Positions 15,961 to 42,210 of a stretch of DNA of 43,649 bases are shown one piece after another. Each line of letters opens with the position of its first letter. Position 1 is the first letter of the stretch. Made by a program: the position numbers and the translations under genes. Source of the DNA: Thermoanaerobaculia bacterium (GTDB taxonomy: Bacteria > Acidobacteriota > Thermoanaerobaculia > Gp7-AA8); contig DASVNL010000032.1 in assembly GCA_036383875.1 (NCBI GenBank), forward strand, positions 1 to 43,649, read 5' to 3'. The notes below the pieces were generated by a model. It ran no database searches. It saw nothing but the letters and a program-made list of their open reading frames with translations, and had not been told where the DNA came from.

Positions 15961-15962
15961 AC

Positions 15963-19639: not shown

Positions 19640-19641
19640 TC

Positions 19642-26479: not shown

Positions 26480-26932
26480 ATGTTCGACGACACGCACGAT
26501 CTCATCCAGCAAATGATGGCCGCGTACGCCGACGACGCAGTCAGCTTTGCGCGTCAGGTCTTTTCGATCGAACTGAATTCATCGCCGGACAGCATCCAAC
26601 AAGTCGAATTCATCCTCGACAAACTCTCCCGCTCCGTCCGCCGAACCTGGCTCAAACGCCTCCTCCGCCTCGGCATGTCCGAAGAGCAAACCGACACCGT
26701 CGCGAAAATGTTCGGCGGCTACATCGGCGAAATCATCCGCAAAGACAAAGGCGGCATCTGGCAAATCATCGCCAGCCCCACCGGCGAAGGCGACGTCGTC
26801 GCCCTCGTCAACGGCGAAGACAAAATCTTCCCACCCGCCAAGGCCTACAAGCGGCTCGTAAACGGCGACGAGGACAACGTCTGGTTCTATTACCAGGTGT
26901 TGATGTCCGGCGAGGTTTACGGAAGCCGGTAA
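26480..26932 (+). CDS. hypothetical protein
   Basis: 150-aa ORF with normal composition. It starts 1 nt after the previous stop. Its 3' end overlaps the convergent caspase gene by 16 nt. No family recognised. Confidence 0.55.
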   Translation: MFDDTHDLIQQMMAAYADDAVSFARQVFSIELNSSPDSIQQVEFILDKLSRSVRRTWLKRLLRLGMSEEQTDTVAKMFGGYIGEIIRKDKGGIWQIIASPTGEGDVVALVNGEDKIFPPAKAYKRLVNGDEDNVWFYYQVLMSGEVYGSR

Positions 26933-28566
26933 CGACGCCGCTTTCGCGGGGCGTCTTTCCAGGCATCAGTCTTCCGCGCTGGATCTCCGTCTGAATCGAA
27001 GTATGCCGTTCGACGGGTCGTCGTGACCGCTATGTCCTGGCGCTTCAACTCGGGATCGCGGCTGACGATCTGCAGATCCCGAATTTCATCGCCTTCCGGT
27101 GCGACGCGGTGCCAGCGCACCGAAGCAGCACTCGTCAGAGAGAAGAGCGAGTCGGCTGTGGCCGCAACGATCCAGGGCTTATGACTCGAGGTTTGCCGGA
27201 ACACCGCGACGTTTCGCAATCCTGTGAGTCCGGTGAATTGGCCCGTAATCTCGCCATCGCGACCGATGATCGTGATCGCCGAATCGGAAAGCGCGACGAT
27301 TTGATCCACATGCTTGCGCTCTAAATCGCCAGTGGCGAATGTCCGAAGTCCGGGAATCTCCTTCTGCCTCACCTCCGCGAACTCGCGATTGAAGATGATG
27401 AGCCGTTCTTTGAGCGCGACGATGATTTCCGAAACACCGTCTGCGTCCACGTCGGCTACGCCCGCATGAAGGATCGGCGACGGAAATACGGGTTCCCAAA
27501 GCTTCTGGTTTTCCTGATTCTTCAGTGTCAGGTGGCTGCCATCGAATGAGACGCTCAACACTTCGCGGCCTGACGGTCGGTTCCAGCATTTCGAGAGCGG
27601 CATCCGGCCCGCGTTCCCGTCGATTCGTACCTGAATCGCAGCGCCGACCGGTGCTTTGTGATTCGCAAGAATCCATTGTTTGACCTGCTTCTCTGCATGC
27701 CGGTGCAGGGACTCGGCGGTCACAAATTCATCGGTCGCTGAAGCTTGGCAGTCCAGTCCATCGAGAACCGCCTTCGTGAAAACGCCGTTGCGACTCACGG
27801 CGTCGTCGTACGCGTAATTGCCTGCGGATGCCGCATAGAACACGACCTGACCGGATACGTTCTTCATCTTCTTTTCAATGTCGGGGGCGGCGGACGCCGC
27901 GCCGGAGCGGGTATTGCTGAGAGCGCGATCGCGGCAGGCGTCGACGAAGATCAGCGAACGGCGCACTGGCGAGTTTGAGACGATGTCGAAAAGGAGCGCC
28001 GTCTTGAGTGAGGTATGGGTGTCGGGATAGGTGGATGACTCCACGAGGATGTATTCACTGCCATCCGTCATGAACCCGTGCGTAGCGATGGAGAGGATGA
28101 ATATGCCGGCCGGCCCGGCGATCGCTGTCTGTTGTCGCAATTGATAGAGGATCTCGCGCGCGGTTGCCGTGACTTCTTTGGCGCCGGCCTCTTTCAGTTC
28201 TTTGAGGCGCTGCTTCGATTTGTCTTTCACCGGTGCGCCTGAGAGTGCGAGTACAACGCGTTGCGGCGGGATCAGGTGCAGGCGCCGGTCCATGGAAAAC
28301 ATGTACGCAAGGTCGACGGCATCGTCGACGGCGTATCGCACACCATACATGTCTTTATCTCTGAATTTGCTGACCCCCACGAACAACCCCGCGGATTCGT
28401 GGCGATCGAATTTCGGCTCGGGCGCTGCCGTCGTCGCGACCGCGCTCACGGGTCCTGCCGATCGCACGTGGCGTACGAGAGGGACGAATGTCGCGGTGGT
28501 CAGGCCGAGGAGGGCGAGGGCGAGGACGAGCGGCTTCCACGATCTCATCTGCATAGGCAAAGACAC
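26917..28566 (-). CDS. membrane-anchored caspase-family (peptidase C14) protein with C-terminal beta-propeller/FG-GAP-like region
   Basis: 549 aa. N-terminal TM anchor WKPLVLALALLGLTTATFVPLV. The His/Cys dyad contexts are FILSIATHGF and LIFVDACRD, followed by VVFYAASAGNYAYDD...GVFTKAVLDGL. The C-terminal half contains GVADVDADGVSEIIVAL. The start is ambiguous (GTG 28566, ATG 28554 or ATG 28548). Confidence 0.75.
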   Translation of the reverse strand: MSLPMQMRSWKPLVLALALLGLTTATFVPLVRHVRSAGPVSAVATTAAPEPKFDRHESAGLFVGVSKFRDKDMYGVRYAVDDAVDLAYMFSMDRRLHLIPPQRVVLALSGAPVKDKSKQRLKELKEAGAKEVTATAREILYQLRQQTAIAGPAGIFILSIATHGFMTDGSEYILVESSTYPDTHTSLKTALLFDIVSNSPVRRSLIFVDACRDRALSNTRSGAASAAPDIEKKMKNVSGQVVFYAASAGNYAYDDAVSRNGVFTKAVLDGLDCQASATDEFVTAESLHRHAEKQVKQWILANHKAPVGAAIQVRIDGNAGRMPLSKCWNRPSGREVLSVSFDGSHLTLKNQENQKLWEPVFPSPILHAGVADVDADGVSEIIVALKERLIIFNREFAEVRQKEIPGLRTFATGDLERKHVDQIVALSDSAITIIGRDGEITGQFTGLTGLRNVAVFRQTSSHKPWIVAATADSLFSLTSAASVRWHRVAPEGDEIRDLQIVSRDPELKRQDIAVTTTRRTAYFDSDGDPARKTDAWKDAPRKRRRYRLP

Positions 28567-28580
28567 GCCATCGTCGAAAG

Positions 28581-28596
28581 GGTGGCGCGCGCCACC
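28581..28596. promoter_or_regulatory. perfect 16-bp palindrome GGTGGCGCGCGCCACC (A/T flanked) in the 77-bp divergent caspase / vWA intergenic region
   Basis: Read directly: gaaag GGTGGCGC GCGCCACC ttttt, at 28577-28601 with flanks. No upstream plus-strand gene is present for it to terminate. Confidence 0.5.
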
Positions 28597-28643
28597 TTTT
28601 TCCCTCCCTCGTGTCCTTTCATGGACAGCAATCAGGGAGACAT

Positions 28644-29774
28644 ATGAGACGCGGACTCCTCATCGCGGTAGCGTTGCTTCTCATTTCCAATGAGGCCTCG
28701 GCGCAGAAGCTCGGGCCGGTCGACTGGATCTTTCTCGTCGACACGTCGAAGTCGATGCGTGGCATCGGCCGCGACACGAAGGACATCTTTGGCGACGTAA
28801 AAGAGAGCCTCAAGTCGTTCGTACGCGAGACGAACGACGGCGACACGGTCGCGATCTTCACGTTCGATCGCAAGGTGAGTCCGATTGCGAAGATGGACGT
28901 GAGCGGACTCACGCGCGCCGATCTTTACGAGTCGATCGAGCAGCTAAAGGCCGAAGGGGACCGCACGCACCTCGGTGCCGCGATCGCGAAAGGTCTCGAT
29001 CGTGCGGAGTTCTTGCGCACGCATTCCGATCCGACGCGCGCTCGCGCCGTCGTGTTGTTCACGGACGGCAAAGAAGACATTCGCGGAATTGAGAACCCAA
29101 CTCACATCAACGCGAATCTTGCCGGAACCTCGGACTCGTACGTCTACTTCGTTTCGATGGGCAAGGAGCACGAGAAACAACTCGACGAATTTGCCAAGAG
29201 CACTCCGCGCGCGACCGTGCTGCGCGCAACTACGCGCGAACAGATTCGCGCCATGGCGCAGACGATTCGCCGAGATCTCCCGAAGCCCACGCCTCCACCG
29301 CCCATCAAAGAGAAGCCGGCGACTCCACCGCCACCACCACCACCGCCCTCTCCGTGGATGCGCGCACTGCGCTGGTTGATCGAGCTCGCGATCCTCGGCG
29401 GTATCGCGATCTTCCTGCTGCAGCAGCAGCGCAAGAAGAATCGGCTCGAAGGGGAGATCGAGATTCTGCGACCGCAGACCGCGCCCGACCTCGCATTTGT
29501 CGGACTGCCGAAATTGCAGGCGAGCGAGGTGATGCTCAGCGCGATTCTGCCGCTCGACGCATTGAGCGGCGGCGATGCGCGTCTGTTCGTCAAGCGCAAA
29601 GACGGGAAAAAGAAAATCTGGATTTCCGCCGCCGGCGGCGGACTGCGCATCAACGACGTCGACACGCCGGTGAGCGAGTTGTACGACGCCGACACGATCG
29701 AGATCGGCACCGCGAAATTGCGCTTCAACCGCGTCGGCGACGAGCGTCCGTACGACGTCGACTCCGCCCACTAA
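28644..29774 (+). CDS. exported vWA-domain protein with poly-Pro linker, single TM and cytoplasmic FHA-like C-terminal domain
   Basis: 376 aa from ATG 28644 (SD AGGGAGA). Signal peptide MRRGLLIAVALLLISNEASAQ. The MIDAS motif is FLVDTSKSM. The linker is PKPTPPPPIKEKPATPPPPPPPPSP. The TM is WLIELAILGGIAIFLL followed by RKKNR (positive inside). The C-terminus LRINDVDTPVSELYDADTIEIGTAKLRFN resembles the end of an FHA domain. Confidence 0.75.
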   Translation: MRRGLLIAVALLLISNEASAQKLGPVDWIFLVDTSKSMRGIGRDTKDIFGDVKESLKSFVRETNDGDTVAIFTFDRKVSPIAKMDVSGLTRADLYESIEQLKAEGDRTHLGAAIAKGLDRAEFLRTHSDPTRARAVVLFTDGKEDIRGIENPTHINANLAGTSDSYVYFVSMGKEHEKQLDEFAKSTPRATVLRATTREQIRAMAQTIRRDLPKPTPPPPIKEKPATPPPPPPPPSPWMRALRWLIELAILGGIAIFLLQQQRKKNRLEGEIEILRPQTAPDLAFVGLPKLQASEVMLSAILPLDALSGGDARLFVKRKDGKKKIWISAAGGGLRINDVDTPVSELYDADTIEIGTAKLRFNRVGDERPYDVDSAH

Positions 29775-29796
29775 TCACTCGAGAGAGAGGCCTCCA

Positions 29797-32553
29797 ATGA
29801 AAAACAACGTCGTGTTTCGCCCCACTGTCGTCATCGGACTCGGTGGTACCGGCTATGGCGCATTGCTGAAGTTGAAGAAGCGTTTCGTCGACGCGTACGG
29901 CTCGGTGCCGCCGATCATTCGCTTCCTCTCGATCGACACGACGGAGAACGCCGAGGGGACGACGCGGACGGAGGAGGCCCCGCAGGAGGGTGGGCTCGAT
30001 CACAACGAGATGTACGTCCTGCAGGTCGGCAATCCCGGAAATCTCGTGGGAAATGGAACGAATCCGCATCTCGATGAATGGTGGCCGCCCGAAATTCCGA
30101 CGCAGGCCATCATCGCGGGCGCCGGCCAGGTGCGTGCGCGCGGACGCCTGGCGCTCTTCGCGAAGGCGCAAGAGGTGCGCGCGCGGATCCAGCGCGCGAT
30201 CGACGACGTGCGAAACATCCGCAATCAGAAGCAGATGTATTCGGATCAATTTCAGATCTCGAATCGTGCGGGCGTTGAAGTGCACATCGTCGGCAGTCTC
30301 GCGGGTGGCACTGGCAGTGGGACATTTCTCGACGTCGCGTTCATCGCGCGCGACATCATCGGCAGCGACGAGAACTCGAATTTCACCGGCGTGTTGTTGT
30401 TGCCCGGGATTTTCACGCGCTACGCGGGAGTCGCGCTCGTCAAGCCGAACGCGTACGGCGCGCTGAAAGAGATTGAATATCTCTCGACGATGAAAGGCAG
30501 TCTCACGATCGACTATGGCATGCGCCGCGTCGAGGTGACGCGGCCGCCGTTCGACGTCGTCTATCTGATCGACAGCATCAACGAGCAAGGCCGGGTCGTC
30601 ATGGAACAGAACGATCTCCTCGGCCTGATCGCAGACGGAATGTACGTCCAGATCGGATCGCAGATCGGCACCGACAGCGCGAACGCCGTCGACAACATCA
30701 AGACCCAGATTGCGACCGCGGGTCGCGTCAAAGGACGTTCGCCGCAGTACTGCAGTTTCGGCGTCGCGTCGCTGACGATGCCGACGTTCGACGCGCTGAT
30801 GTGGGAGGACGCGAAACGCCTCGTCAATGATGATCTCCTCAATGGCGCTGTCGCGGATTCCGAAGTCGAAGAAGAGGTGCAGCGCTTCATCGACCAGAAC
30901 CGCCTGCGCGAAGACGAGGCCGATCAGGTCGTCGAATTTCTCAGTCAGCGCGAGGGCGGCGGTCAGTTGCGCATCCCGATGCCGCTCACGCAACTCACCT
31001 TCGACAACAAGGCCCTCGGCGCAATCAAGAATCTGCACACCACGCATCGCTCGCGCGCCGAGCGTCAAATTGCGCAGGCCATCGGCGCGAATTTCGAGAA
31101 ATTACGCGATGACTGCGTGGCAGCGATCACGACGCTATGGGAAGCGAAGGTGAATCGCATCAATGGATTCACGCGCGCGGAGCGCTTCTTCGAGAAGCTC
31201 CAGGCGAAGCTGGAGTGGTACCAAAACATGATGGACGGCGAAGCGAAGGAGGAGCGCACGAAGCTGAAGGCGCTGAGCTTCAAGCCGGCCGAGGATCAGA
31301 TTACGGAGGCGGCGGGCGCGTTCTTTAGTCGCGAGGCGCGCGTGAAGACGGCGTGCGAAGTGTACGGCGGACTGGTCGATCGCGAGACCGAACTGACGAT
31401 TCGTGTCGCGCGACTCGAGAAGGCCGCCGAGCTTTATTCGACGCTGCATGCGCACACGCAATCGATCCTCAATTCCTGCTACCGCATCCGCGAAAACCTC
31501 AATGCATCGCGCAAGCAATTCGAGCAGCAGTATCTCGACGCGACGAACCCGCGCGGGTCGTCGCGGTTGTTCGAACAGACCGTCGCCTTCGATCCCGGCG
31601 CACAACGTCCGAAGGTTCTCGGCGATGACTTCGTGAAGTGGTACGCCGATCATCACGCGAACGGCTCGCTCTCGCAGTGGGCCGGACTGCGCGCGGCCGA
31701 AGTCCACGCGGACATTCGCCAGTTCGTCGAGAAATGTTATGAGCCGCTCACGTCACTCACGATGGACGACATCCTGAGCCGTCTCTCGCCGGATGCGGTG
31801 TCGCAGGAATTGAAGCGCCTGGATAATCTCGCCGTTCCTCTCTGGCGTTACGACCTCGGCAGAATTCCGGTCGTCAATCAAACCATCATCAATGAGTTCT
31901 ATCACTACGGCGTTTCAGACGCGGAGTCGACGGTGCTCAAGGCGGCGCGTTATGCGACGGGCGTTCCCAAGGGCAACGCGCAACCGGGCATGGTCTCGAC
32001 GCGCGACGCGAACCGCATCCTCCTGTTCAAGGTCAAGACCGGCATTCCGCTGTTCGCGCTTGCCGACATTGAAGACATGGAGCGCGCGTATACCGATCCG
32101 AACAAGATCATCTCGTGTCACCTTCACCGCGACTGGAAGGAACTACAGAACCTCATTCCGCGCAGTGGCGACGGCGAGGCATTGCGGTGGTTCGCGCTCG
32201 CGCAGGCGCCGGAGCCGTTCGCGATCATCAAGCGCGAGGGCGCGTGGTATTCGATGAAGTCGAAGGGCGGCAAGCGCCTCGACAACAACATGGTTCGACT
32301 CGCGCAGGGCCGCGTGCCGGCCTACAACGCGTTCGAGAAAAATCGGGAACTCGTTCAGGAAGCGGAGGAATCGATCGATGCCGTAGTCACGCGCGAAGGC
32401 GCGGTGCGCGTCATTCAGATCCTCAAGGACTACACGGACACGCTCTCGAAGCAGATGAGCGGGACGGCCGTCGATCCGGTGGTGAAGGATCAAGTCGAGA
32501 ACGAGATTCTGGCCATTGAGGATTACGTGCGGCGGATGGAGACGCTGAGCTGA
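29797..32553 (+). CDS. tubulin/FtsZ-superfamily GTPase (Tubulin_2-like) with a ~600-aa helical C-terminal extension
   Basis: 918 aa. T1-like VVIGLGGTGYG lies at 29836-29859. The tubulin-signature-like motif GSLAGGTGSGTFLDVA has AGGTGSG at 30301-30321. No signal peptide or TM. No division/cell-wall gene context. Confidence 0.75.
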   Translation: MKNNVVFRPTVVIGLGGTGYGALLKLKKRFVDAYGSVPPIIRFLSIDTTENAEGTTRTEEAPQEGGLDHNEMYVLQVGNPGNLVGNGTNPHLDEWWPPEIPTQAIIAGAGQVRARGRLALFAKAQEVRARIQRAIDDVRNIRNQKQMYSDQFQISNRAGVEVHIVGSLAGGTGSGTFLDVAFIARDIIGSDENSNFTGVLLLPGIFTRYAGVALVKPNAYGALKEIEYLSTMKGSLTIDYGMRRVEVTRPPFDVVYLIDSINEQGRVVMEQNDLLGLIADGMYVQIGSQIGTDSANAVDNIKTQIATAGRVKGRSPQYCSFGVASLTMPTFDALMWEDAKRLVNDDLLNGAVADSEVEEEVQRFIDQNRLREDEADQVVEFLSQREGGGQLRIPMPLTQLTFDNKALGAIKNLHTTHRSRAERQIAQAIGANFEKLRDDCVAAITTLWEAKVNRINGFTRAERFFEKLQAKLEWYQNMMDGEAKEERTKLKALSFKPAEDQITEAAGAFFSREARVKTACEVYGGLVDRETELTIRVARLEKAAELYSTLHAHTQSILNSCYRIRENLNASRKQFEQQYLDATNPRGSSRLFEQTVAFDPGAQRPKVLGDDFVKWYADHHANGSLSQWAGLRAAEVHADIRQFVEKCYEPLTSLTMDDILSRLSPDAVSQELKRLDNLAVPLWRYDLGRIPVVNQTIINEFYHYGVSDAESTVLKAARYATGVPKGNAQPGMVSTRDANRILLFKVKTGIPLFALADIEDMERAYTDPNKIISCHLHRDWKELQNLIPRSGDGEALRWFALAQAPEPFAIIKREGAWYSMKSKGGKRLDNNMVRLAQGRVPAYNAFEKNRELVQEAEESIDAVVTREGAVRVIQILKDYTDTLSKQMSGTAVDPVVKDQVENEILAIEDYVRRMETLS

Positions 32554-35351
32554 TGCTCAAGCCCGTTAGCATTCTCGCCCTCGACGATGCCTCGGCGCCG
32601 CTCGCAATGGCGGTGCAACAACGCATCGCGTCGCAGCTCGAGCTCGACGATCTCGTGCAATGCCGCGCCATTGGAGCGACGACGCTCGAGGATGCGATTC
32701 AGTCAATTCACGCGCAGCGCCAGCGTCCCGACAGTCCGCTGCGCGTGCGCGACGATCTCAGTCCGCGCGAATTGGTGATGGTCGTGCTGGCCGCGTCCGG
32801 GCCCGCACGATTGACGCTCATCGAGACGGTGCAGCGCATTCGCCGTCATTACGAGTCGCGCCACCTGGTGTCGTTCTTCACGATTGAGATTCTCTGCTTG
32901 ATGCCCGAGGTGATTGGGGCGAAGGAGAAGGGCGACTATGCGAATGCATATGCGTTGCTGAAGGCGCTGAGCGCCGATGGTGCGAAAGCGTTCGACGAAG
33001 TGTGGCTGCTCGACGCGACCAACGGCGCGCGCGTGCGGTTCGGCGCGATCGACACGGCGCTCGATGCCTACGCGGATGCCGTTGCGGGCTCGCTGTTACA
33101 CGAGCCGGAGATGAGCGGCGCGCTGCCTGGCCTCCATCCGCGCGGGATGCATCCGACGTTCAGTTCGTTCGGATACGCGGAGCTCGTGTTTCCGCGCGAC
33201 ATCGCGCTGCGGCGGCTCGAGCCGCGATTCGCGGTGCAATTGCTGCGCGAGACGTTGCTCGCCGGCAAGGAGCCATCGCACGCGCAACTTGCGGCAAAGC
33301 AGTTCGTCGCGAGCGATGAGTTCACGACGCCGCTCGCGCGCATCGGCGTCGACGCGGGGCAGTCGCTCTTTCAGCGATTCCAGGCGCGTGCGCACGTCAC
33401 GGAGCAGACGCGCAGTGCGGACGAATTGATCGCGGCGGTGCGCGCCGAGTTGAAATCGTTTCGCGACACGACGCATCTCAAGAATCTCGAGACGCTCGCG
33501 AAGCAGGGCGAGCAGACATCGCGCGACTTCGCGACGCGACTCGCGCGCGTCGTCGACGAGACGCTCGATCGCGACGGATACGACTCGGCGATCGCGCTGC
33601 TCGACGCGTTGCTCGATCCGCTGCCGGATTTGCGTCCGGACGCGGAGCTCGCGCCGCGCAATCTCGTGACGGAAATCGGCGCGGCGACGGCGGCTCTCGA
33701 CAAGCAGTTGCAGTTCACGCCCAACACCGCGACGAGCGACGCCGCGCGCAAGCGCATCCGTGAGCTCGAGACGTTGATGCAGGATCAGAAGCTCGTCGCG
33801 GAGTCGCTGTCGCCGGTGTCCGCGGCGGAGCAACTCGAGGAAATGCAACGCGAGAAATCCGCACTGTTGCAACGCGTGCCTGAGGTGCTGTTCGCGGAGG
33901 AGCGGGAGAACAACGTCGCGCGCAACGCGGCGCGCGAGGCGGAGACGGCGCGACTGATGGCGGAGACCGAGGGGCGCGAGCAGACGTTGCGCGAATTGTT
34001 TGCGCAGTTGCCGCGCGCGGAGCAGGCGGTGCGTGAGGCGCTGGAGTTGCGACGCGACTGGCTGCGCAAGCAGGTCCTCACCGCGATCGCGGGCGTCGCC
34101 GCGATGTATGGGCTGCCATTCGTTTTCGGTCTGCTGCGCCCGAACCTCGAGCGCATCCACTGGGCCACCGGCCTCGGCCTGCTGACCTTCGCGATCGTCT
34201 GCACGTATCGCTACTTCAATCAAATCCAACCGCTCGTCAGCGGTGCGCGCGCGGCACTGGCGCGACTGCGTGAACAGATCGCGGCGACCGATCAGTCGAA
34301 GAACGCGGCGCACAACGACGAGCTGCGATTCGAATACGACATGGCGCATCGCCGCACGACGATCCGTGTGCTGCGCGAAACGCGCGACGTCGCGAAGACG
34401 ACGCTAGACGCCGTGCGCGCGCGACGCGTCGAGCTCGAGGAACTGGCAGCGGCGCTGACGCCGGCGTCGATCGTCTCGAGCGGACTGACGATCGCGATCG
34501 TGGACGACGCGGAAGTCGACGCGTGGTACGAGCGCACGATCGAGGATCGCAAGCCATTCGTGCGCGAGTTTCCGATCACGCGCGCGCAGTCGCGACAACT
34601 GGCGCTCGATGATCTGCGCGAACGCATCGTCGCGTACACCGCGACGGCGTTCGACGCGTTCCGCAAGTTCACGCTCGCCGATGCAGCGGCGAATGTCGCG
34701 AGCGAGCCGAAACTCACGCAGCGCATGAAGCGATTCACCGATACGAGCGCGCCGCTGATCGAAGTGCGCGACGACGATCTGCACGCGCAGAACGCGATGC
34801 AGCGCGACGCGACGTTGTGGGCAGACAGCAGCGATCGGACGTGGCTCGAACAGCTGCAGCGTCGCTTTCCGAGCGCGCATTTCAAGGCGTCGTCGGATGC
34901 ATTGCGCGTCCACGCGATCACGCGCGTCCTGCACTATCCGGCCTACGTCCTCGGGCAAATCGAGTATTACCGCGCGCAATACGAAGCTGCATCGCAGCGC
35001 GAGTCCGCCGACGTCGCGGATCTGCTGCCGCCCGAGCTCATTCTCGGGACGCCAGTGCGGAACGCGTACGAGCAGGTGCTGCTCGCACGCGCGGTCGGCG
35101 TGATCTCGCAACACGCCGACGGGCAACTCTTCGCCTCCGACTCCGCCCTCGGCAACTCGCACTTCGCCGCGGCTCAACGCATCGCCGATGCAGCGCCGTT
35201 GCGCGATGCGTTGGAGAACGCGCTCGCGCCGCGATTGGAAATCGCGGGCGATGTCACGCGGGATTTGCGCACGCTCGGCGAGTTGCCGCTCACGCCGCTC
35301 GAACGCAATCTCGTCGACGCGTTGCTCAAGAGGTACGCGGCGCTGGCGTGA
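32553..35351 (+). CDS. degenerate tubulin-like paralogue with coiled-coil regions and a central two-helix membrane hairpin
   Basis: 932 aa. TGATG 1-nt overlap with the upstream gene. The N-terminal ~250 aa are collinear with the upstream protein, but the GTP motifs are replaced (ILALDDASAP for IGLGGTGYG; VVLAASGPARL for GSLAGGTGSGT). The TM hairpin lies at ~34074-34215 (LTAIAGVAAMYGLPFVFGLL ... WATGLGLLTFAIVCTYRYF). Long Glu/Arg/Leu/Ala-rich helical stretches are present. Confidence 0.7.
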   Translation: MLKPVSILALDDASAPLAMAVQQRIASQLELDDLVQCRAIGATTLEDAIQSIHAQRQRPDSPLRVRDDLSPRELVMVVLAASGPARLTLIETVQRIRRHYESRHLVSFFTIEILCLMPEVIGAKEKGDYANAYALLKALSADGAKAFDEVWLLDATNGARVRFGAIDTALDAYADAVAGSLLHEPEMSGALPGLHPRGMHPTFSSFGYAELVFPRDIALRRLEPRFAVQLLRETLLAGKEPSHAQLAAKQFVASDEFTTPLARIGVDAGQSLFQRFQARAHVTEQTRSADELIAAVRAELKSFRDTTHLKNLETLAKQGEQTSRDFATRLARVVDETLDRDGYDSAIALLDALLDPLPDLRPDAELAPRNLVTEIGAATAALDKQLQFTPNTATSDAARKRIRELETLMQDQKLVAESLSPVSAAEQLEEMQREKSALLQRVPEVLFAEERENNVARNAAREAETARLMAETEGREQTLRELFAQLPRAEQAVREALELRRDWLRKQVLTAIAGVAAMYGLPFVFGLLRPNLERIHWATGLGLLTFAIVCTYRYFNQIQPLVSGARAALARLREQIAATDQSKNAAHNDELRFEYDMAHRRTTIRVLRETRDVAKTTLDAVRARRVELEELAAALTPASIVSSGLTIAIVDDAEVDAWYERTIEDRKPFVREFPITRAQSRQLALDDLRERIVAYTATAFDAFRKFTLADAAANVASEPKLTQRMKRFTDTSAPLIEVRDDDLHAQNAMQRDATLWADSSDRTWLEQLQRRFPSAHFKASSDALRVHAITRVLHYPAYVLGQIEYYRAQYEAASQRESADVADLLPPELILGTPVRNAYEQVLLARAVGVISQHADGQLFASDSALGNSHFAAAQRIADAAPLRDALENALAPRLEIAGDVTRDLRTLGELPLTPLERNLVDALLKRYAALA

Positions 35352-35355
35352 CGCG

Positions 35356-36126
35356 TCAGTTGCGCTGCAATTGTTCGATCGCGCGTCGCAACGCCGCGAT
35401 CTCTTCGCGCAGCTCGTTGTTGCTGTTCGTTTCTGCTTTCTGATCGGGCGACAGGAACCAGGTCGCGAGTCCCGCCGAGACGACGCCGAAGAGTCCGACG
35501 CCCGCAGTCATCAACAACGCGGCGACCATGCGTCCGGCGGTGGTCATTGGGAACTTGTCGCCGTACCCGACGGTCGTGATCGTGGTGATCGCCCACCAAA
35601 TCGCATCCTCGGCCGTCATGATGTTCCCGGTATTCGGATCTTCGAAATGCAAAACCGCAGTCGCGCCTGCGAATACGAGAACCACGGCGAGCAAGGTCGC
35701 GGCGAGCAATGTCGATTGTTTACGGCGACTGAGAATCGCAGTCGAGAGCACCCGCGCGGCACGAAGTCCGCGCAGCAATCGCGCGATGCGTGCGATGCGC
35801 GCAATGCGACCCCACCGCGCGACGTCGAGCATCGGAATTGACGAGAGCAGGTCGAGCCAGCCCCACGTGAGGAAATACTTCATCCGATTCGGCGCGCGCC
35901 ACAACGTGATCAGAAAATCGATCCCGAACGCGATGCAGATCGCCGTGTCCGCATACATCAACACGCCTTCAATCTGCGAGTCGTGATCGACCGCGTTCTG
36001 CGCGACCACGCCCGCAAGCGCGAGCACGCAAAGCGCGAGCATGAAGAGTTGATAAACCGGCATGGCGCTGCGCGCCGGTTGTGCTGGCGCCGAGGCGGCG
36101 GGAGTGGCAAGTGCGTCAGTGGACAT
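35356..36126 (-). CDS. voltage-sensor-containing K+ channel (6TM Kv/KvAP-like)
   Basis: 256 aa. The S4-like segment is RWGRIARIARIARLLRGLRAARV. The selectivity filter is TTVGYGD. A short C-terminal coiled coil is present. SD AAGGAG follows 12 nt after the caspase stop. Confidence 0.85.
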   Translation of the reverse strand: MSTDALATPAASAPAQPARSAMPVYQLFMLALCVLALAGVVAQNAVDHDSQIEGVLMYADTAICIAFGIDFLITLWRAPNRMKYFLTWGWLDLLSSIPMLDVARWGRIARIARIARLLRGLRAARVLSTAILSRRKQSTLLAATLLAVVLVFAGATAVLHFEDPNTGNIMTAEDAIWWAITTITTVGYGDKFPMTTAGRMVAALLMTAGVGLFGVVSAGLATWFLSPDQKAETNSNNELREEIAALRRAIEQLQRN

Positions 36127-36138
36127 GGCGGCTCCTTG

Positions 36139-37941
36139 TCAACGCCGTAGTTTACGCGGCGGCACGGATTCAAACGCCGCTCTTTCGATCGACCACGCGC
36201 TCGTCGTCAGCGTGCGGCCGGCGCGAATGCCATCCCAGTCGAGCACCGACGGATTCGGCAGCGGCTCTTCGGTCGACAAGAGAAAGAACAAATCGGCGCC
36301 ATACGGCGGCTTGACCTCGAAGACGGAGTTGTCGCCGAGGGTGATCGTGGATGCGATTTCACCAAGAGGAAAGCGATTCTCGACCGAGCCGTTGCTGCTT
36401 TGTGGGAACGCGAGAAAGCTTTTGCCGTGGCTGTCGATCACGAACGCGTAGTAGTAGCGTTTCGGCGCCCTGCGATTCGTGCCTTGCAATACGACGCGAT
36501 AGCGCTCGCCACCGATGAGCGTGTTGCCGGTGACGAGCGACCGATCGGCTTCGCGTTGCAGCGCGAGCCGGTACGGCGCGGCGGGCCCGGGCGGAGACTC
36601 GAGATTTCGCCAGCCGTGAATCTTGCGCAGCGTCAACGCGGACTCGCGCAGCGACGCACGGTTCGCAATCCACGCGCTTCGTTCATTTCGCGCGCCGGTG
36701 CGAATCCACGCGTGCTCTTGACCTTTGCTCGCGAGGATGTAGTCCGCGTCTGCCGCAGTTGCGACGATCTGGAAGCCGTCGCTGGAATCGATGATGCCGG
36801 TCAGCGGCGATTGCGACCACACGCGCAATGGTCGCGACGGAGGTGCGGCCCACGAGCTCACTTCGAGCATTGCGCCGGCGGTGACGCGGCCACGCTCGAT
36901 GCGCGCGACGCTGCGGTGAATGCCGAGGAGACGGGTGACGACGAGGCGGGACGCGTTGTCGCGCGTCTTGAGGATGCTGCCGATCGCGAGGCCGTTCGCC
37001 CAGCCGCCCTGCACGACGACGGTGCCGTTCGCATCGACGCGTTCGATCGCGACAACCGATTGTCGATCGCGAAGGTGGAGTCGCGTGTCGAGGAAGGGTC
37101 GATTGCGAGCGGCGCTCGTTCCCGCAAGCACGGGCTGCTGATCGGGATGCTCGGCGCGCATCCGCGCATGGGCGCGAAGGAACGTCTGTTGCGCGGACTC
37201 GTGCGGTGTCGCGTCGCGCAGAGCGTGCAGGAATGCCCACGTGAAGTCGCCGTGCAGTTCATCGTCGTCGCCCAACGATTCCCACGCGGTGCCATTGTCC
37301 TGTGCAGCCGCGATCACGAGCGCGCCGCGCGTTTCGGGTCGCGGGCCGTAGTCTGTGCGATCGCGCACGTCGGTGGTCGCGGGCTGAATGCTGCGCGTGC
37401 GAGGTGATCCGCGGAAGGACGAGCCGCTGTTGCAATGATCGAGGAGCAGCGTGAGGTGCGTCCCGCGATCGAGGATCGCGTTGAAGCGCGTGCGCAGTTC
37501 CTTGTCGCGAATGTCCGGCGCGCCGCGACGCGAGTCGGCGGGAACGATTGATTCGTCGAGCCGATCGAGTTCGTCGGACAGCGAATTGGGAATTTGCGAG
37601 CCGTGCCCGGCGAAGTAGAAGAACGCGACATCGCCTTTGCGTGACGCGTTCACGAGATCGTCGATGGCTCGCAGGATTGCGACGCGTGTCGCGCGTTGAT
37701 TGAGGAGCGTGACGACGTCGCCCGTCGCGAATCCGTATCGCGACGTCAATAGCTCGCGGAGCAATTGTGCGTCACGTGCCGCGCCACGGAGATCAGGCCA
37801 GCCGCGATGCTCGACGTTGCGTACTTTTGGGATGGTCGACGCGGTGTAATCGTCGATGCCGATGATCACCGCGCGTTTGCGAACTGTTTGCGCGTCCGCG
37901 GTCATCGCGATCAGGCAGGTGAATGCGAGAACGAATTTCAT
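36139..37941 (-). CDS. exported caspase-family (peptidase C14) protein with C-terminal DUF4384-like domain
   Basis: 600 aa from ATG 37941 (MKFVLAFTCLIAMTADAQ signal; ATGA overlap with the upstream gene stop). The dyad contexts are FFYFAGHGSQ and LLLDHCNSGS. The C-terminus YYYAFVIDSHGKSFLAFPQ...FEVKPPYGADLFFLLSTEEPL matches my memory of DUF4384. Confidence 0.75.
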   Translation of the reverse strand: MKFVLAFTCLIAMTADAQTVRKRAVIIGIDDYTASTIPKVRNVEHRGWPDLRGAARDAQLLRELLTSRYGFATGDVVTLLNQRATRVAILRAIDDLVNASRKGDVAFFYFAGHGSQIPNSLSDELDRLDESIVPADSRRGAPDIRDKELRTRFNAILDRGTHLTLLLDHCNSGSSFRGSPRTRSIQPATTDVRDRTDYGPRPETRGALVIAAAQDNGTAWESLGDDDELHGDFTWAFLHALRDATPHESAQQTFLRAHARMRAEHPDQQPVLAGTSAARNRPFLDTRLHLRDRQSVVAIERVDANGTVVVQGGWANGLAIGSILKTRDNASRLVVTRLLGIHRSVARIERGRVTAGAMLEVSSWAAPPSRPLRVWSQSPLTGIIDSSDGFQIVATAADADYILASKGQEHAWIRTGARNERSAWIANRASLRESALTLRKIHGWRNLESPPGPAAPYRLALQREADRSLVTGNTLIGGERYRVVLQGTNRRAPKRYYYAFVIDSHGKSFLAFPQSSNGSVENRFPLGEIASTITLGDNSVFEVKPPYGADLFFLLSTEEPLPNPSVLDWDGIRAGRTLTTSAWSIERAAFESVPPRKLRR

Positions 37942-38324
37942 GGCCACGATCCGCACGGTTCCAGCGACCGCGCTTCCTTTTCAGTCGTGGCGCCGTAAGT
38001 CCACAAACGTTCATTGACGTCTCGGTAGGTGACGGCGCGAAATCTACGGTCGGCGGCGAATTTCTGAATGCCGCCTTCGTAGACCTTGTATTTCGGCGAG
38101 CCGTATTGAAACGCCTCGACGATGTTGTCAGTCAGCGCTTGGCCGGTCTGCACGAGCAGCACCTGACAATCGTTGCCGGCGGCGTAACTACGGATGCTCC
38201 ACTTGGGGAATTGTCTGTAGCGTTCTGTGAGCTCATCCGACGCTTTGATGTGAGCCTCGGCGACAGGATCGGCATCGCAGGCCAGAAAGAGAGTGAGCAG
38301 AGTCATAGCGAGCAGGCGGTGCAT
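37938..38324 (-). CDS. small lipoprotein, unknown function
   Basis: 128 aa with the lipobox LTLFLAC. SD AGGAGG upstream of ATG 38324. Translationally coupled (ATGA) to the caspase gene. Confidence 0.6.
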   Translation of the reverse strand: MHRLLAMTLLTLFLACDADPVAEAHIKASDELTERYRQFPKWSIRSYAAGNDCQVLLVQTGQALTDNIVEAFQYGSPKYKVYEGGIQKFAADRRFRAVTYRDVNERLWTYGATTEKEARSLEPCGSWP

Positions 38325-38343
38325 GACGCCTCCTGATGAGAGA

Positions 38344-38373
38344 ACGGCTCGCCATCAAGCGATGGCGAGCCGT
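38344..38373 (-). other. perfect 13-bp stem / 4-nt loop intercistronic hairpin
   Basis: ACGGCTCGCCATC aagc GATGGCGAGCCGT lies between the stop at 38391 and the SD/ATG of the lipoprotein gene. No U-tract follows on the minus strand (tctctc). Confidence 0.6.
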
Positions 38374-38390
38374 CGAATGGAAGTGTGGGA

Positions 38391-42168: not shown

Positions 42169-42210
42169 GCATTCACTAAGATACGCGCTTCGCGCGATCG
42201 GAGACGAATC

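What the first reader, a model, noticed from the sequence alone, without database searches (positions are those of the whole stretch)
28644..35351. Uncharacterised operon: exported vWA-TM-FHA-like sensor + giant tubulin/FtsZ-superfamily GTPase + membrane-anchored coiled-coil paralogue
Seen in sequence:
- Three co-directional genes are separated by 22 nt and by a 1-nt TGATG overlap.
- Gene 1 places a MIDAS-containing vWA domain outside the membrane (signal peptide, poly-Pro stalk, one TM, positive-inside RKKNR). An FHA-like ~100-aa domain sits inside.
- Gene 2 is a 918-aa soluble protein carrying GLGGTGYG and AGGTGSG, which are T1/T4-type tubulin/FtsZ nucleotide-binding motifs.
- Gene 3 is a 932-aa paralogue with coiled coils and a TM hairpin.
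- No fts/mur/min/par genes are nearby, so this is not the division FtsZ.

Established knowledge:
- GGGTG(S/T)G is the tubulin/FtsZ signature.
- Divergent FtsZ-like/Tubulin_2 families were predicted computationally to form membrane-remodelling systems (Makarova and Koonin, Biol Direct 2010), but they remain experimentally uncharacterised.
- I cannot tell without a search whether this protein belongs to one of those families.

Inference:
- This may be an envelope-spanning module. A periplasmic vWA ligand-binding event would be relayed via FHA (phospho-Thr binding) to a membrane-tethered GTP-dependent polymer.
Basis: partly seen in the sequence, partly recalled or inferred. Interest (0 to 1): 0.9.

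Follow-up and report, generated by a model that had tools for sequence, protein, structure and literature searches.

The report
FtsZ-like GTPase operon with vWA sensor
This is a three-gene membrane module: a periplasmic metal-binding sensor, a tubulin-like GTPase, and a membrane-anchored dead copy of that GTPase. The operon type was predicted by computer in 2010 and has never been tested, so this is a new member of a known but unexplained kind.

Summary
Three co-directional genes (28644-29774, 29797-32553, 32553-35351) have the stated junctions, motifs and topology.

- **Gene 2** is a clear member of Pfam Tubulin_2 (PF13809, E 1.6e-64), the FtsZl1 family of Makarova and Koonin 2010.
- **Gene 1** is the vWA/MIDAS partner those authors described.
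- **The triad is conserved.** It keeps the same order in about 50 genomes of Acidobacteriota and cyanobacteria. The 2010 supplement already lists it for Nostoc (alr2042-2044). It is therefore a new member of a known, uncharacterised kind.

What is new here:
- Gene 3 is a true but degenerate paralogue of gene 2 (profile E about 1e-6 for both end domains). It has lost both Gly-rich GTP loops and gained a membrane hairpin.
- The operon and the divergent periplasmic caspase gene carry back-to-back copies of a conserved ECF-sigma-like promoter motif.
- Relatives often sit beside caspase, TIR or NACHT genes, or inside BREX/Hma islands.

There is no Pfam match, the canonical residues are absent, and no kinase is linked.

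Best reading (inferred): a stress- or conflict-induced, envelope-spanning GTP-dependent polymer anchored by its dead paralogue.

The parts
28590..28615 (+). Promoter-like bipartite motif CGCCAC-N15-GTGTC, 28 nt upstream of the gene 1 ATG (ECF-sigma-type, inferred)
   Evidence: Exact match in the window. The same motif, with the same 15-nt spacing, lies 7-46 nt upstream of 24 gene 1 orthologues. There are 51 instances in the 56 loci, against 4.4 +/- 1.6 in shuffled sequence. In L012 the motif also precedes an ECF sigma gene.
28562..28587 (-). Back-to-back copy of the same motif. It faces the divergent caspase gene, and its -35-like half forms the palindrome GGTGGCGCGCGCCACC with the + strand copy
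   Evidence: The motif precedes 10 orthologues of this caspase, including ones that are not adjacent to the operon.
28644..29774 (+). Gene 1 (376 aa), a membrane-spanning vWA protein. It has a signal peptide (res 1-21), a periplasmic vWA/MIDAS domain (res 22-212, 28707-29279) and a Pro-rich stalk (213-237). These are followed by one TM helix (238-262, 29355-29429) and a cytoplasmic all-beta domain (266-366, 29439-29741).
   Evidence: Pfam VWA 5e-15. AlphaFold2 model with pLDDT 83. Foldseek vWA hits down to 7e-11. MIDAS residues are invariant. The C-domain shows 77% pairwise identity against 65% for vWA.
29797..32553 (+). Gene 2 (918 aa), an FtsZl1/Tubulin_2 GTPase. It has an N-terminal tubulin-like domain (res 11-330, 29827-30786) with T1 GLGGTGYG (29836-29859) and T4 SLAGGTGSG (30295-30321). 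Long helices follow (406-583, 31012-31545), then a C-terminal domain (603-918).
   Evidence: PF13809 1.6e-64. T1, T4 and a GAGQVRARGR block are invariant in 20 homologues. AlphaFold2 secondary structure. Foldseek FtsZ/TubZ/CetZ/gamma-tubulin at probability 1.00, E 0.01-0.1. It is the most conserved gene of the triad.
32553..35351 (+). Gene 3 (932 aa), a degenerate membrane-anchored paralogue of gene 2. Its N-domain (res 1-245) has no Gly-rich GTP loops. A helical region follows, then a TM hairpin (res 507-556, 34071-34220), a second helical region, and a C-terminal domain (646-932) homologous to that of gene 2.
   Evidence: hhalign N-domains: probability 92%, E 5.7e-7. C-domains: probability 89%, E 2.3e-6. 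A diverse gene 3 family HMM hits gene 2 at 7e-27 in two collinear stretches. 17 of 20 family members have weak Tubulin_2 hits. Motif table. All full-length representatives lack GGTGSG, and nearly all have at least one mid-protein TM segment.
26917..28554 (-). Divergent exported caspase-like peptidase (Peptidase_C14, N-terminal TM/signal). Probably co-regulated with the operon; it is an associated gene, not a proven component.
   Evidence: Pfam C14 4e-9. An orthologue sits divergently upstream in 14 of 22 Thermoanaerobaculia-type loci that have enough flank, at only 36-48% identity, while the genes further left differ. It shares the promoter-like motif.
35356..42444 (-). Convergent minus-strand cluster. 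It holds a K+ channel (35356-36126), an exported caspase (36139-37956), a small ORF with a lipobox-like N-terminus (37938-38324), an unknown 369-aa protein (38391-39500) and a TPR-CHAT protein (39394-42444). These are recurrent neighbours whose membership is not shown.
   Evidence: Pfam. The caspase-2 / unknown-369 / CHAT set recurs within 12 kb in about 10 related loci. The K+ channel recurs in 6, twice behind the same promoter-like motif.

Best explanation
**Identity (high confidence, about 0.9).** This is an FtsZl1 (Pfam Tubulin_2)/vWA operon of the kind Makarova and Koonin predicted in 2010, in a Thermoanaerobaculia (Acidobacteriota) genome. It is the three-gene subtype also found in Pyrinomonadaceae/Blastocatellia and in cyanobacteria.

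**Mechanism (inferred, about 0.4).**
- Gene 1 places a MIDAS-containing vWA domain in the periplasm and a conserved beta-sandwich domain in the cytoplasm.
- Gene 2 is the only GTP-binding subunit. It assembles, tubulin-like, at the inner face of the membrane.
- Gene 3 has lost the GTP loops but kept the N- and C-terminal domains. It has gained a membrane hairpin and serves as the anchor, nucleator or cap for gene 2.
- The cytoplasmic domain of gene 1 couples periplasmic ligand binding to this assembly. The coupling is by direct protein contact, not by phospho-threonine signalling.
- The module is an accessory, inducible system. In this clade it is expressed from an ECF-sigma-type promoter together with a periplasmic caspase-like protease.
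- It acts in envelope stress or biological conflict by remodelling or perturbing the cytoplasmic membrane.

**Shown:** the domain identities, the topology, the paralogy and loss of GTP motifs, the conservation of the triad, the conserved promoter-like motif, and the neighbourhood contents.

**Inferred:** GTP-dependent polymerisation, the anchoring role of gene 3, the coupling through gene 1, sigma-factor dependence, and the physiological role.
For: - **Family membership.** PF13809 at 218.8 bits. [quoted passage not shown]
- **Triad order.** The same order and strand are found wherever my HMMs detect all three genes, from 88% down to 38% gene 2 identity, cyanobacteria included. Most of the other loci are cut by contig ends; L052, L054, L055 and L024 are the exceptions described under evidence against. 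The 2010 supplement lists vWA(608)-FtsZl1(910)-'coiled-coil'(1015) for Nostoc alr2042-44 and Anabaena Ava_4733-31.
- **Gene 3 paralogy and motif loss.**
- **Conservation.**
  - Gene 2 is far more conserved than genes 1 and 3: 82% against 56% and 60% in 20 loci.
  - The cytoplasmic domain of gene 1 is better conserved than its periplasmic domain.
  - Together these fit a constrained cytoplasmic core with faster-evolving peripheral parts.
- **Inducible, accessory character.**
  - Back-to-back promoter-like motifs are shared with the caspase gene.
  - In related loci the same motif also precedes an ECF sigma gene and a PDC-S37/Hhe helicase-nuclease.
- **Conflict-type neighbours elsewhere.**
  - TIR (L001, L052), RHS (L002) and NACHT-HEAT (L038).
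  - HmaC, PDC-S01, BrxL and a DrmD/BrxH helicase on Thermaceae plasmids.
  - Two caspase genes beside a Tubulin_2 gene on an Azospirillum plasmid.
- **Published prediction.** Kaur et al. 2020 independently classed systems with paired tubulin genes plus an extracellular TM-vWA protein as conflict systems (PMC7159879).
Against: - No experiment exists for any member of the family.
- The gene 2 model is poor in the GTPase domain (pLDDT 35-80). The Foldseek E-values are only 0.01-0.1, and hmmsearch finds no solved structure.
- Makarova and Koonin could not identify the T6-H7 elements that other tubulins use to polymerise, so filament formation is not assured.
- PADLOC has no model that matches any of the three genes.
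- Neighbourhoods are heterogeneous. In some loci they are plainly housekeeping, for example L043 with EPSP synthase and PheT.
- Loci without a clean triad:
  - L052 has a vWA gene and a gene 2 relative, about 3.9 kb of sequence downstream, and no gene 3 hit.
  - L054 and L055 have only a gene 2-like gene.
  - In L024 all three genes are split into fragments.
- Caspase synteny within one bacterial class could partly reflect shared ancestry.
- The promoter reading rests on a motif, not on a mapped transcript. No sigma factor gene was found among the window ORFs scanned with Pfam.
- No interaction among the three proteins was tested.
Confidence: 0.45

Rival explanations
1. This is a dedicated immune or conflict system in the sense of Kaur et al. 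2020. The tubulin-like pair forms an NTP-dependent, threshold-setting assembly that is triggered through the vWA protein. That assembly licenses linked effectors such as the caspase-like and CHAT peptidases, TIR proteins or nucleases, leading to cell suicide or invader restriction. The polymer is a signalling scaffold, not a membrane-remodelling machine.
For: - Paired tubulin genes with an extracellular TM-vWA protein are described in GAP1-N2 conflict systems.
- In Thermoanaerobaculia, caspase genes flank the operon and share its promoter-like motif. Caspase genes also lie beside a Tubulin_2 gene on an Azospirillum plasmid.
- Other neighbours are TIR, NACHT, RHS, BrxL, HmaC and Hhe-like genes.
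- The sensor (gene 1) and gene 3 evolve fast relative to gene 2.
Against: - The components that define those systems (GAP1, a double-Zn-ribbon GTPase, an FNIII-repeat protein) were not found among the window ORFs scanned.
- No single effector family travels with the triad across clades.
- Both window caspases carry an N-terminal hydrophobic signal/TM segment and are probably exported. A cytoplasmic polymer could not activate them directly.
- PADLOC has no hit to the triad.
Confidence: 0.25
2. Ligand binding by the periplasmic vWA domain is relayed by a cytoplasmic FHA domain that reads phospho-threonine marks, and this controls a membrane-tethered GTP-dependent polymer.
For: - The cytoplasmic domain is a roughly 95-residue all-beta module.
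- The only hit of its profile in the PDB is the FHA-1 domain of Rv1747, aligned over the expected C-terminal half, but at E 0.72.
- Protein kinases are frequent in other FtsZl1 operons (PMC2875224).
Against: - No Pfam FHA match at E<=10 in the window protein, and none at E<=1 in eight diverse orthologues.
- In my reading of the alignment, the conserved FHA Gly-Arg and Ser-x-x-His positions are not kept.
- No Hanks kinase catalytic motif lies within 10 kb in any of the 56 loci.
- No PP2C or kinase was found among the window ORFs scanned.
Confidence: 0.07
3. This is a constitutive cytoskeletal or membrane-remodelling machine, the original Makarova-Koonin reading. It would be a housekeeping system for vesicle formation, cell shape, surface organisation or adhesion, unrelated to stress or conflict.
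For: - The authors' genomic-context argument.
- The triad is inherited largely vertically within Acidobacteriota classes and cyanobacteria.
- Some loci have only housekeeping neighbours (L043).
- Gene 2 is under strong constraint.
Against: - Distribution is patchy. There are only about 100 clusters (at 50% identity) of the gene 3 family among 1.84 billion representatives.
- Tubulin_2 relatives occur on megaplasmids and inside defence islands.
- A specialised promoter-like motif is shared with a caspase gene and with a helicase-nuclease gene that matches PADLOC's Hhe/PDC-S37 models, rather than a general promoter.
Confidence: 0.18
4. The system does not polymerise. Genes 2 and 3 form a fixed heterodimeric GTPase switch, one live and one dead subunit held by coiled coils. 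It gates a membrane activity of the gene 3 hairpin without forming filaments.
For: - The T6-H7 polymerisation elements were not identifiable in FtsZl1.
- Gene 3 lacks the nucleotide loops.
- The two genes are translationally coupled by the TGATG overlap, which suggests 1:1 production.
- Weak Foldseek matches of the helical region to bacterial dynamin and to ClyA-type pore-forming toxins (probability 0.2-0.77).
Against: - The Foldseek alignments to FtsZ span about 300 columns, that is both FtsZ domains.
- An invariant DSANAVDNIK segment sits where a T7-like loop would be expected (my reading).
- The toxin and dynamin matches have low probability and come from a low-confidence model.
Confidence: 0.1

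Closest known systems
FtsZl1-vWA operons (Makarova and Koonin, Biol Direct 2010; Pfam Tubulin_2 PF13809), in particular Nostoc PCC 7120 alr2042-alr2043-alr2044 and Anabaena variabilis Ava_4733-4731
   Same: - The same family by Pfam.
- The same three-part architecture of the GTPase.
- The same upstream vWA protein with an intact MIDAS and membrane anchoring.
- The same three-gene order and similar sizes: 608/910/1015 in Nostoc, 613/920/1054 in Pseudanabaena L047, 376/918/932 here.
   Different: - The 2010 table lists the third gene only as a 'coiled-coil' hypothetical. Here it is shown to be a paralogue that lacks the GTP loops and carries a TM hairpin.
- The window's vWA protein is shorter, with a Pro-rich stalk where the cyanobacterial and Pyrinomonadaceae proteins have an extra, possibly Ig-like, domain.
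- This subtype has none of the kinase, P-loop GTPase or OmpA genes seen in other FtsZl1 operons.
Tubulin-containing GAP1-N2 GTPase-centric conflict systems (Kaur, Burroughs, Iyer, Aravind, eLife 2020)
   Same: - Two tubulin-domain proteins with coiled coils.
- A vWA protein with TM segments and an extracellular vWA domain.
- Predicted action close to the membrane.
- Association with conflict-type genes.
   Different: - No GAP1, no Zn-ribbon GTPase and no FNIII-repeat protein here.
- Those systems were reported for Firmicutes and Actinobacteria, not for Acidobacteriota or cyanobacteria.
- The passages I read do not mention degeneracy or membrane insertion of the second tubulin gene.
Tubulin-family pairs in which the two subunits handle GTP differently (eukaryotic alpha/beta-tubulin). 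This is an analogy from general knowledge and was not tested.
   Same: Two paralogous subunits are encoded or produced together. Only one nucleotide site turns over.
   Different: Alpha-tubulin still binds GTP, whereas gene 3 has lost both Gly-rich loops altogether and is membrane-embedded. No heterodimer has been shown here.
FtsZ with its membrane tethers FtsA/ZipA/SepF (general knowledge)
   Same: A cytoplasmic tubulin-superfamily GTPase needs a separate membrane anchor.
   Different: - Here the presumed anchor is a paralogue of the GTPase itself.
- There is no FtsZ_C domain.
- No conserved C-terminal peptide was looked for.
- There is no dcw-cluster context.
- The protein is about 900 aa with a coiled coil.
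Integrin-type outside-in coupling through a MIDAS vWA/I domain (general knowledge)
   Same: An extracytoplasmic MIDAS domain sits on a single-pass membrane protein whose cytoplasmic tail would contact a cytoskeletal polymer.
   Different: This is purely an architectural analogy. The vWA domain here is periplasmic on a short stalk, the ligand is unknown, and no coupling has been shown.

Membership tests
FtsZl1 / Pfam Tubulin_2 (PF13809) | Significant match to the family profile above the curated threshold | tested here: met
   Gene 2 residues 11-330 match profile positions 1-339 of 356, E 1.6e-64, 218.8 bits against a cut-off of 27. All close homologues carry the precomputed PF13809 hit.
FtsZl1 / Pfam Tubulin_2 (PF13809) | Gly-rich T1 and T4 (GGGTG(S/T)G-type) nucleotide-binding loops | tested here: met
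   GLGGTG (14-19) and SLAGGTGSG (167-175) are invariant in 20 homologues.
FtsZl1 / Pfam Tubulin_2 (PF13809) | [quoted passage not shown] | tested here: met
   AlphaFold2 secondary structure: alternating beta/alpha in 10-330, long helices at 406-583 (pLDDT about 90), and a helix-rich C-terminal region. This matches the published description.
FtsZl1 / Pfam Tubulin_2 (PF13809) | Operon partner with a vWA domain and an intact MIDAS, often with a signal peptide or TM | tested here: met
Tubulin/FtsZ superfamily fold | Three-dimensional similarity of the N-terminal region to FtsZ or tubulin structures | tested here: inconclusive
   Foldseek returns FtsZ (7ysz, 5xdv, 4u39, 2vam), TubZ 3v3t, CetZ 4b45/3zid and gamma-tubulin 7anz at probability 1.00 and target TM-score 0.40-0.44. 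However, E is only 0.01-0.1 and the model has low pLDDT in this domain. Sequence-profile search of the PDB finds nothing.
Tubulin/FtsZ superfamily function | GTP binding and hydrolysis, and GTP-dependent polymerisation | not testable with these tools
   This needs biochemistry. The T7-like catalytic loop could not be assigned with confidence.
Cell-division FtsZ | Tubulin (PF00091) plus FtsZ_C domains and a dcw/division gene context | tested here: not met
   Only Tubulin_2 and a borderline RecA_C hit were found. The neighbours are pectin-utilisation, caspase, channel and CHAT genes.
Gene 3 as a member of Tubulin_2 | Profile match above the Pfam threshold, and GTP-binding loops | tested here: not met
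   Window gene 3 scores 13.2 bits against a cut-off of 27 (E 0.054). T1 and T4 are replaced by ALDDAS and AASGPAR. Homology is nevertheless supported by profile-profile comparison. Gene 3 is therefore a diverged paralogue outside the family as Pfam defines it.
FHA domain (PF00498) | Profile match, and the conserved Gly-Arg / Ser-x-x-His / Asn pThr-binding residues | tested here: not met
   No Pfam hit at E<=10, and none at E<=1 in diverse orthologues. One non-significant PDB sequence hit to an FHA domain (E 0.72). GLP and G(S/G)DARLF stand at the expected positions in my reading. The fold itself could not be searched, because vWA hits filled the Foldseek list.
FHA-based signalling module | A linked Ser/Thr kinase or PP2C phosphatase | tested here: not met
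   A regular-expression scan for the Hanks catalytic loop plus DFG found none in the 56 loci. No kinase or phosphatase was found among the window ORFs scanned with Pfam.
GAP1-N2 GTPase-centric conflict system (Kaur et al. 2020) | A GAP1 protein, a TRAFAC GTPase with N-terminal Zn ribbons, and an FNIII-repeat component | tested here: not met
   None were found among the window genes scanned. Only the variable tubulin-plus-vWA theme is shared.
Catalogued anti-phage defence systems (PADLOC-DB 2.0) | A match of any of the three proteins to a defence-system model | tested here: not met
   No hits for genes 1-3. Only neighbours in this or related loci match: caspase, BovA-like CHAT, BrxL, HmaC, PDC-S01, PDC-S37/Hhe.
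ECF-sigma-dependent promoter | Conserved bipartite -35/-10 elements with fixed spacing, positioned just upstream of start codons, and also upstream of the cognate sigma gene | tested here: inconclusive
   The motif, its spacing, its position and its enrichment are shown. One instance precedes an ECF sigma gene in L012. No transcript mapping exists, no sigma gene was found among the window ORFs scanned, and there is no match to a named ECF group consensus.

The most novel reading that the evidence does not exclude
Genes 2 and 3 form an obligate heterotypic tubulin-superfamily pair: one GTP-competent subunit and one nucleotide-dead subunit inserted in the membrane. After the periplasmic MIDAS sensor (gene 1) engages its ligand, the pair polymerises at the inner membrane and deforms or permeabilises it. 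This would make it a tubulin-family effector of envelope defence or abortive infection. It would be switched on by an ECF sigma factor together with periplasmic caspase-like proteases. It would also be the first function assigned to the FtsZl1 family.
Probability: 0.12. Interest if true: 0.85.

Novelty: new member of a known kind. Interest (0 to 1): 0.5.

Why it matters
FtsZl1/Tubulin_2 is among the most divergent branches of the tubulin/FtsZ superfamily. In the library searched it has had no experimental study since its prediction in 2010.

This analysis does not reveal a new kind of system, but it sharpens the open question into testable parts:
- The minimal conserved unit is three genes.
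- The third gene is a GTP-loop-less, membrane-inserted copy of the GTPase.
- The cytoplasmic domain of the vWA protein is the conserved coupling element, and it does not look like a working FHA domain.
- In one clade the unit is wired to a specialised promoter shared with an exported caspase.
- In other clades it sits inside BREX/Hma-type islands.

Orthologous or similar triads exist in cultured organisms: Nostoc PCC 7120, Pseudanabaena cinerea, and plasmids of Thermus and Meiothermus. The function could therefore be tested directly.

Tried and rejected
- **BLASTP of gene 2 against gene 3.** Not significant (E 0.38). Only profile methods showed the paralogy.
- **Profile search of the PDB with the gene 2 family.** No FtsZ or tubulin hit.
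- **Foldseek with the whole gene 1 model.** It returned only vWA structures, so the cytoplasmic domain could not be compared by fold.
- **Pfam search of the gene 1 C-domain at E<=10, and of eight orthologues at E<=1.** No FHA.
- **hhalign of the gene 2 N-domain against E. coli FtsZ typed from memory.** Only the T4 region aligned (E 0.034). The T7 loop could not be assigned.
- **Genome scan with gene 3 family alignments.** The gene 2 alignment was used instead.
- **Third gene of the Thermaceae plasmid operons** (about 680 aa, no TM). Its relationship to tubulin-like proteins is unproven (hhalign probability 10%).
- **Sigma-70 promoter and terminator scan.** Uninformative.
- **Rfam and tRNA scans of the window.** Empty.
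- **Literature search for alr2042-2044.** Nothing found.
- **Readings rejected:**
  - A division FtsZ, on domain content and context.
  - A plasmid-segregation TubZ system. No TubR-like partner turned up, though none was specifically searched for, and the architecture is different.
  - Membership of the GAP1-N2 systems, because the defining GTPase components are absent.

Full report
**1. The observation**

The three ORFs exist as described.

- Gene 1 most plausibly starts at ATG 28644, behind a GGGAG ribosome-binding site, and ends at TAA 29774.
- 22 nt containing GAGAGAGAGG separate it from the ATG of gene 2 at 29797.
- Gene 2 ends in the TGATG overlap at 32551-32555, which starts gene 3.
- Gene 3 ends at 35351, four bases before the stop codon of a convergent K+ channel gene.
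- The window has 60-67% G+C, with no compositional break at the operon.

**2. What the three proteins are**

Gene 1 (376 aa)
- It matches Pfam VWA (E 5e-15, residues 29-202).
- In 36 orthologues the MIDAS residues D33-x-S35-x-S37, T108 and D141 are invariant.
- An AlphaFold2 model (mean pLDDT 83) shows these parts in order:
  - an N-terminal signal helix and a vWA fold;
  - a Pro-rich linker;
  - one TM helix (237-265) followed by QQQRKKNR;
  - an all-beta domain of nine to ten strands (271-362).
- Foldseek confirms the vWA fold (best E 7e-11).
- The cytoplasmic domain is the most conserved part of the protein: 77% mean pairwise identity, against 65% for vWA and 36% for the TM segment.

Gene 2 (918 aa)
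- It matches Pfam Tubulin_2 (PF13809) over residues 11-330, with E 1.6e-64 and 218.8 bits against a cut-off of 27.
- GLGGTG, SLAGGTGSG and a GAGQVRARGR block are invariant in 20 homologues.
- The AlphaFold2 model is weak in the GTPase domain but confident for very long helices at 406-583.
- Even so, the only globular PDB matches are FtsZ, TubZ, CetZ and gamma-tubulin. They have probability 1.00 and target TM-score 0.40-0.44 over about 300 columns, with E 0.01-0.1.
- A sequence profile finds no solved relative.

Gene 3 (932 aa)
- It has no Pfam family, and BLASTP to gene 2 is not significant.
- Profile-profile comparison of the two families aligns two regions:
  - the N-domains: gene 2 residues 103-355 with gene 3 residues 14-243, probability 92%, E 5.7e-7;
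  - the C-domains: 603-790 with 646-828, probability 89%, E 2.3e-6.
- An HMM built from 25 diverse gene 3 family members hits gene 2 at E 7e-27, in two collinear stretches on either side of the gene 3 membrane hairpin.
- 17 of 20 family members have sub-threshold Tubulin_2 hits.
- The two families share the blocks RPT/KPT..I.., PPFD..(Y/W)L.D..N and Y(C/S)SFG...L..P. In every gene 3 family member, however, ALD-x-x-A replaces GLGGTG and LSA(A/S)GP-type sequences replace SLAGGTGSG.
- No full-length representative has a GGTGSG motif, and nearly all have at least one mid-protein hydrophobic TM segment. In the window protein the hairpin is at residues 507-527 and 536-556.
- Gene 3 is therefore a nucleotide-loop-less, membrane-inserted paralogue of gene 2.

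**3. Conservation**

Close homologues are named Thermoanaerobaculia or Acidobacteriota MAG proteins. A scan of species-representative genomes returned 53 loci:
- Thermoanaerobaculia, at 76-88% gene 2 identity;
- Pyrinomonadaceae/Blastocatellia, at 49-56%;
- Pseudanabaena/Oscillatoriales, at 38-40%;
- a few more distant ones.

Family HMMs run on all ORFs of these loci find gene 1, gene 2 and gene 3 in the same order and on the same strand wherever all three are detected, cyanobacteria included. Most loci without a full triad are cut by contig ends. The exceptions:
- L052 has a vWA gene and a gene 2 relative, about 3.9 kb of downstream sequence, and no gene 3 hit.
- L054 and L055 have only a gene 2-like gene.
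- In L024 all three genes are fragmented.

Gene 2 is much better conserved than its partners: 82% against 56% and 60% mean identity to the window in 20 loci. It is more conserved in every one of those loci.

The gene 3 family is small. Only 100 clusters at 50% identity reach E<=0.001 among 1.84 billion representatives.

**4. Comparison with the literature**

Makarova and Koonin (PMC2875224) defined FtsZl1 as follows:
- usually an operon with a vWA protein that has an intact MIDAS and often a signal peptide or TM.

They proposed a membrane-remodelling role, and they noted that the T6-H7 elements could not be identified.

Their Additional file 5 lists the following:
- alr2042 (vWA, 608 aa), alr2043 (FtsZl1, 910 aa) and alr2044 (1015 aa) in Nostoc;
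- Ava_4733, Ava_4732 and Ava_4731 ('coiled-coil') in Anabaena.

This is the same triad by order and size as my cyanobacterial loci. The third gene was not recognised there as a paralogue.

Kaur et al. (PMC7159879) describe conflict systems in Firmicutes with two tubulin-plus-coiled-coil genes and a TM protein with an extracellular vWA domain. Those systems are built around GAP1 and Zn-ribbon GTPases, which are absent here.

I found no experimental work on the family or on alr2042-2044.

**5. The FHA claim**

The cytoplasmic domain of gene 1 is real, but its FHA identity is not established.

- Pfam finds nothing at E<=10 in the window protein, and nothing at E<=1 in eight diverse orthologues.
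- A family profile finds a single PDB sequence, the FHA-1 domain of Rv1747, at a non-significant E of 0.72.
- In my reading of the alignment, the positions expected for the pThr-binding Gly-Arg and Ser-x-x-His are GLP and G(S/G)DARLF.
- No Hanks kinase motif occurs in any of the 56 loci.

The domain may have an FHA-like fold, but a phospho-threonine relay is unsupported.

**6. Context and regulation**

Among the long ORFs scanned with Pfam, bases 4393-22178 of the window gave pectin/hexuronate-utilisation enzymes.

The operon's neighbours are:
- a divergent caspase-like gene with an N-terminal TM/signal segment (26917-28554);
- on the other side, a minus-strand cluster of a K+ channel, a second caspase with an N-terminal signal segment, an ORF with a lipobox-like N-terminus, an unknown protein and a TPR-CHAT protein.

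An orthologue of the first caspase lies divergently upstream of gene 1 in 14 of 22 Thermoanaerobaculia-type loci with enough flank. It is only 36-48% identical, while the genes further out differ. The caspase-2 / unknown / CHAT set recurs in about ten loci.

The 77-nt divergent intergenic region carries two exact, back-to-back copies of CGCCAC-N15-GTGTC: 28590-28615 on the + strand and 28562-28587 on the - strand.
- A relaxed form, C[GC]CCAC-N15-G[TG]GT[CT], occurs 51 times in the 56 loci, against 4.4 +/- 1.6 in shuffled controls.
- 24 copies lie 7-46 nt upstream of gene 1 orthologues.
- 10 lie upstream of caspase-1 orthologues, even where the caspase is not adjacent.
- 2 lie upstream of K+ channel orthologues.
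- Single copies lie upstream of an ECF sigma gene (L012), an RmuC gene (L024) and a helicase-nuclease gene that matches PADLOC PDC-S37/Hhe (L007).
- Spacer sequences vary, while the two blocks and the 15-nt spacing are kept.

I read this as an ECF-sigma-type promoter that co-regulates the operon and the caspase. This is an inference from a motif.

Neighbours outside this clade vary:
- TIR-aspartyl protease (L001), RHS (L002), NACHT-HEAT (L038), a STAND-like ATPase with TIR-TPR (L052) and a UvrD-like helicase (L047);
- or plainly housekeeping genes (L043).

On Thermaceae megaplasmids, a vWA gene, a tubulin-like gene and a 680-aa gene lie directly upstream of BrxL. The island around them contains HmaC, PDC-S01, a DrmD/BrxH-type helicase and methylase genes.

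On an Azospirillum plasmid, a Tubulin_2 gene is flanked by two caspase genes and by OmpA proteins.

PADLOC has no model for the triad itself.

**7. Interpretation**

The identity as an FtsZl1-vWA operon is secure. The mechanism is inferred:
- Gene 2 is the GTP-dependent assembling subunit.
- Gene 3 is its membrane-embedded, nucleotide-dead partner, acting as anchor, nucleator or cap.
- The conserved cytoplasmic domain of gene 1 couples the periplasmic MIDAS domain to this assembly by direct contact.

The specialised promoter, the patchy distribution, the plasmid-borne relatives and the conflict-type neighbours favour an inducible stress or conflict role over a housekeeping cytoskeleton. The evidence for that is associative.

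The main rivals, given with confidences in the rival list, are:
- a signalling scaffold that licenses effectors;
- a constitutive remodelling machine;
- a non-polymerising heterodimeric switch;

**8. Verdict**

This is a new member of a computationally known, experimentally uncharacterised kind.

The modest new points are the degenerate membrane-anchored paralogue, the non-canonical cytoplasmic domain of the vWA protein, and the promoter motif shared with a caspase gene.

Interest is moderate (0.5). The find is not a surprise to a specialist, but the family's function is a 16-year-old open question, and the conserved three-gene unit identified here exists in cultivable organisms.

Noticed in passing
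window 28562-28615 (both strands); related loci L003-L053, for example L012 8779-8843 and L007 17014-17067: A conserved bipartite motif, C[GC]CCAC-N15-G[TG]GT[CT], looks like an ECF-sigma promoter. It occurs back-to-back between the caspase gene and gene 1. In relatives it also lies upstream of K+ channel, ECF sigma, RmuC and Hhe/PDC-S37-like genes. This suggests a small clade-specific regulon.
   Followed up: partly
window 26917-28554 (-), 36139-37956 (-), 39394-42444 (-): The window holds two caspase-like peptidases with N-terminal signal/TM segments, whose His and Cys motifs look intact by eye, and a TPR-CHAT protein whose N-terminal region contains a lipobox-like LLPAC. All three appear to be extracytoplasmic. 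They recur near the operon in related Thermoanaerobaculia genomes at low identity (33-58%).
   Followed up: partly
L056 6297-14374, L057 6366-15458, L058 6395-14354 (Meiothermus, Allomeiothermus and Thermus plasmids): A vWA gene, a tubulin-like gene (about 905 aa) and a hypothetical gene (about 680 aa, no TM) lie directly upstream of BrxL in three genera. The surrounding islands contain HmaC, PDC-S01, a DrmD/BrxH helicase and a methylase. Whether the 680-aa protein is a further-diverged tubulin paralogue is unresolved (hhalign probability 10%).
   Followed up: partly
L059 7950-14914 (Azospirillum sp. TSA2s plasmid p2): A 1214-aa Tubulin_2 protein sits next to two caspase family genes and several OmpA/DUF4384/PEGA genes. 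This is an independent co-occurrence of FtsZl1 with caspases in Alphaproteobacteria.
   Followed up: no
window 32221-32379 (gene 2 residues 809-861): Gene 2 has a borderline Pfam RecA_C match (E 3.4e-6, 27.5 bits against a cut-off of 27). The same hit is precomputed for many homologues. The region is modelled as a small beta-sheet plus helix. Its significance is unknown.
   Followed up: no
window 10308-14627 (+): A single 1439-aa ORF combines GH43, a GH43 C-terminal domain, pectinesterase, a GDSL esterase and GH88 domains. It lies within a pectin/hexuronate-utilisation locus (UxaC, GH28, a TonB-dependent receptor, DUF4861). It is an unusually large multi-enzyme fusion if it is a true single gene.
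   Followed up: no
L052 8405-12739 (Thermoanaerobaculia MAG): A second, divergent vWA-Tubulin_2 pair (30% identity to gene 2) has no recognisable gene 3. A STAND-like AAA ATPase and a TIR-TPR protein flank it.
   Followed up: no
L024 7956-15532: In one long-read MAG, all three genes of the triad are split into several ORFs. This could be frameshift errors of the assembly or a decaying copy. I did not distinguish between the two.
   Followed up: no
L047 7977-9818, L043 7996-9819, L037 8357-9949, L031 8395-9939: Cyanobacterial and Pyrinomonadaceae orthologues of gene 1 are 500-610 aa. Between the vWA domain and the TM segment they have weak Ig-like hits (FixG_C, NPCBM_assoc, HYDIN-type), where the window protein has only a Pro-rich stalk.
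   Followed up: no
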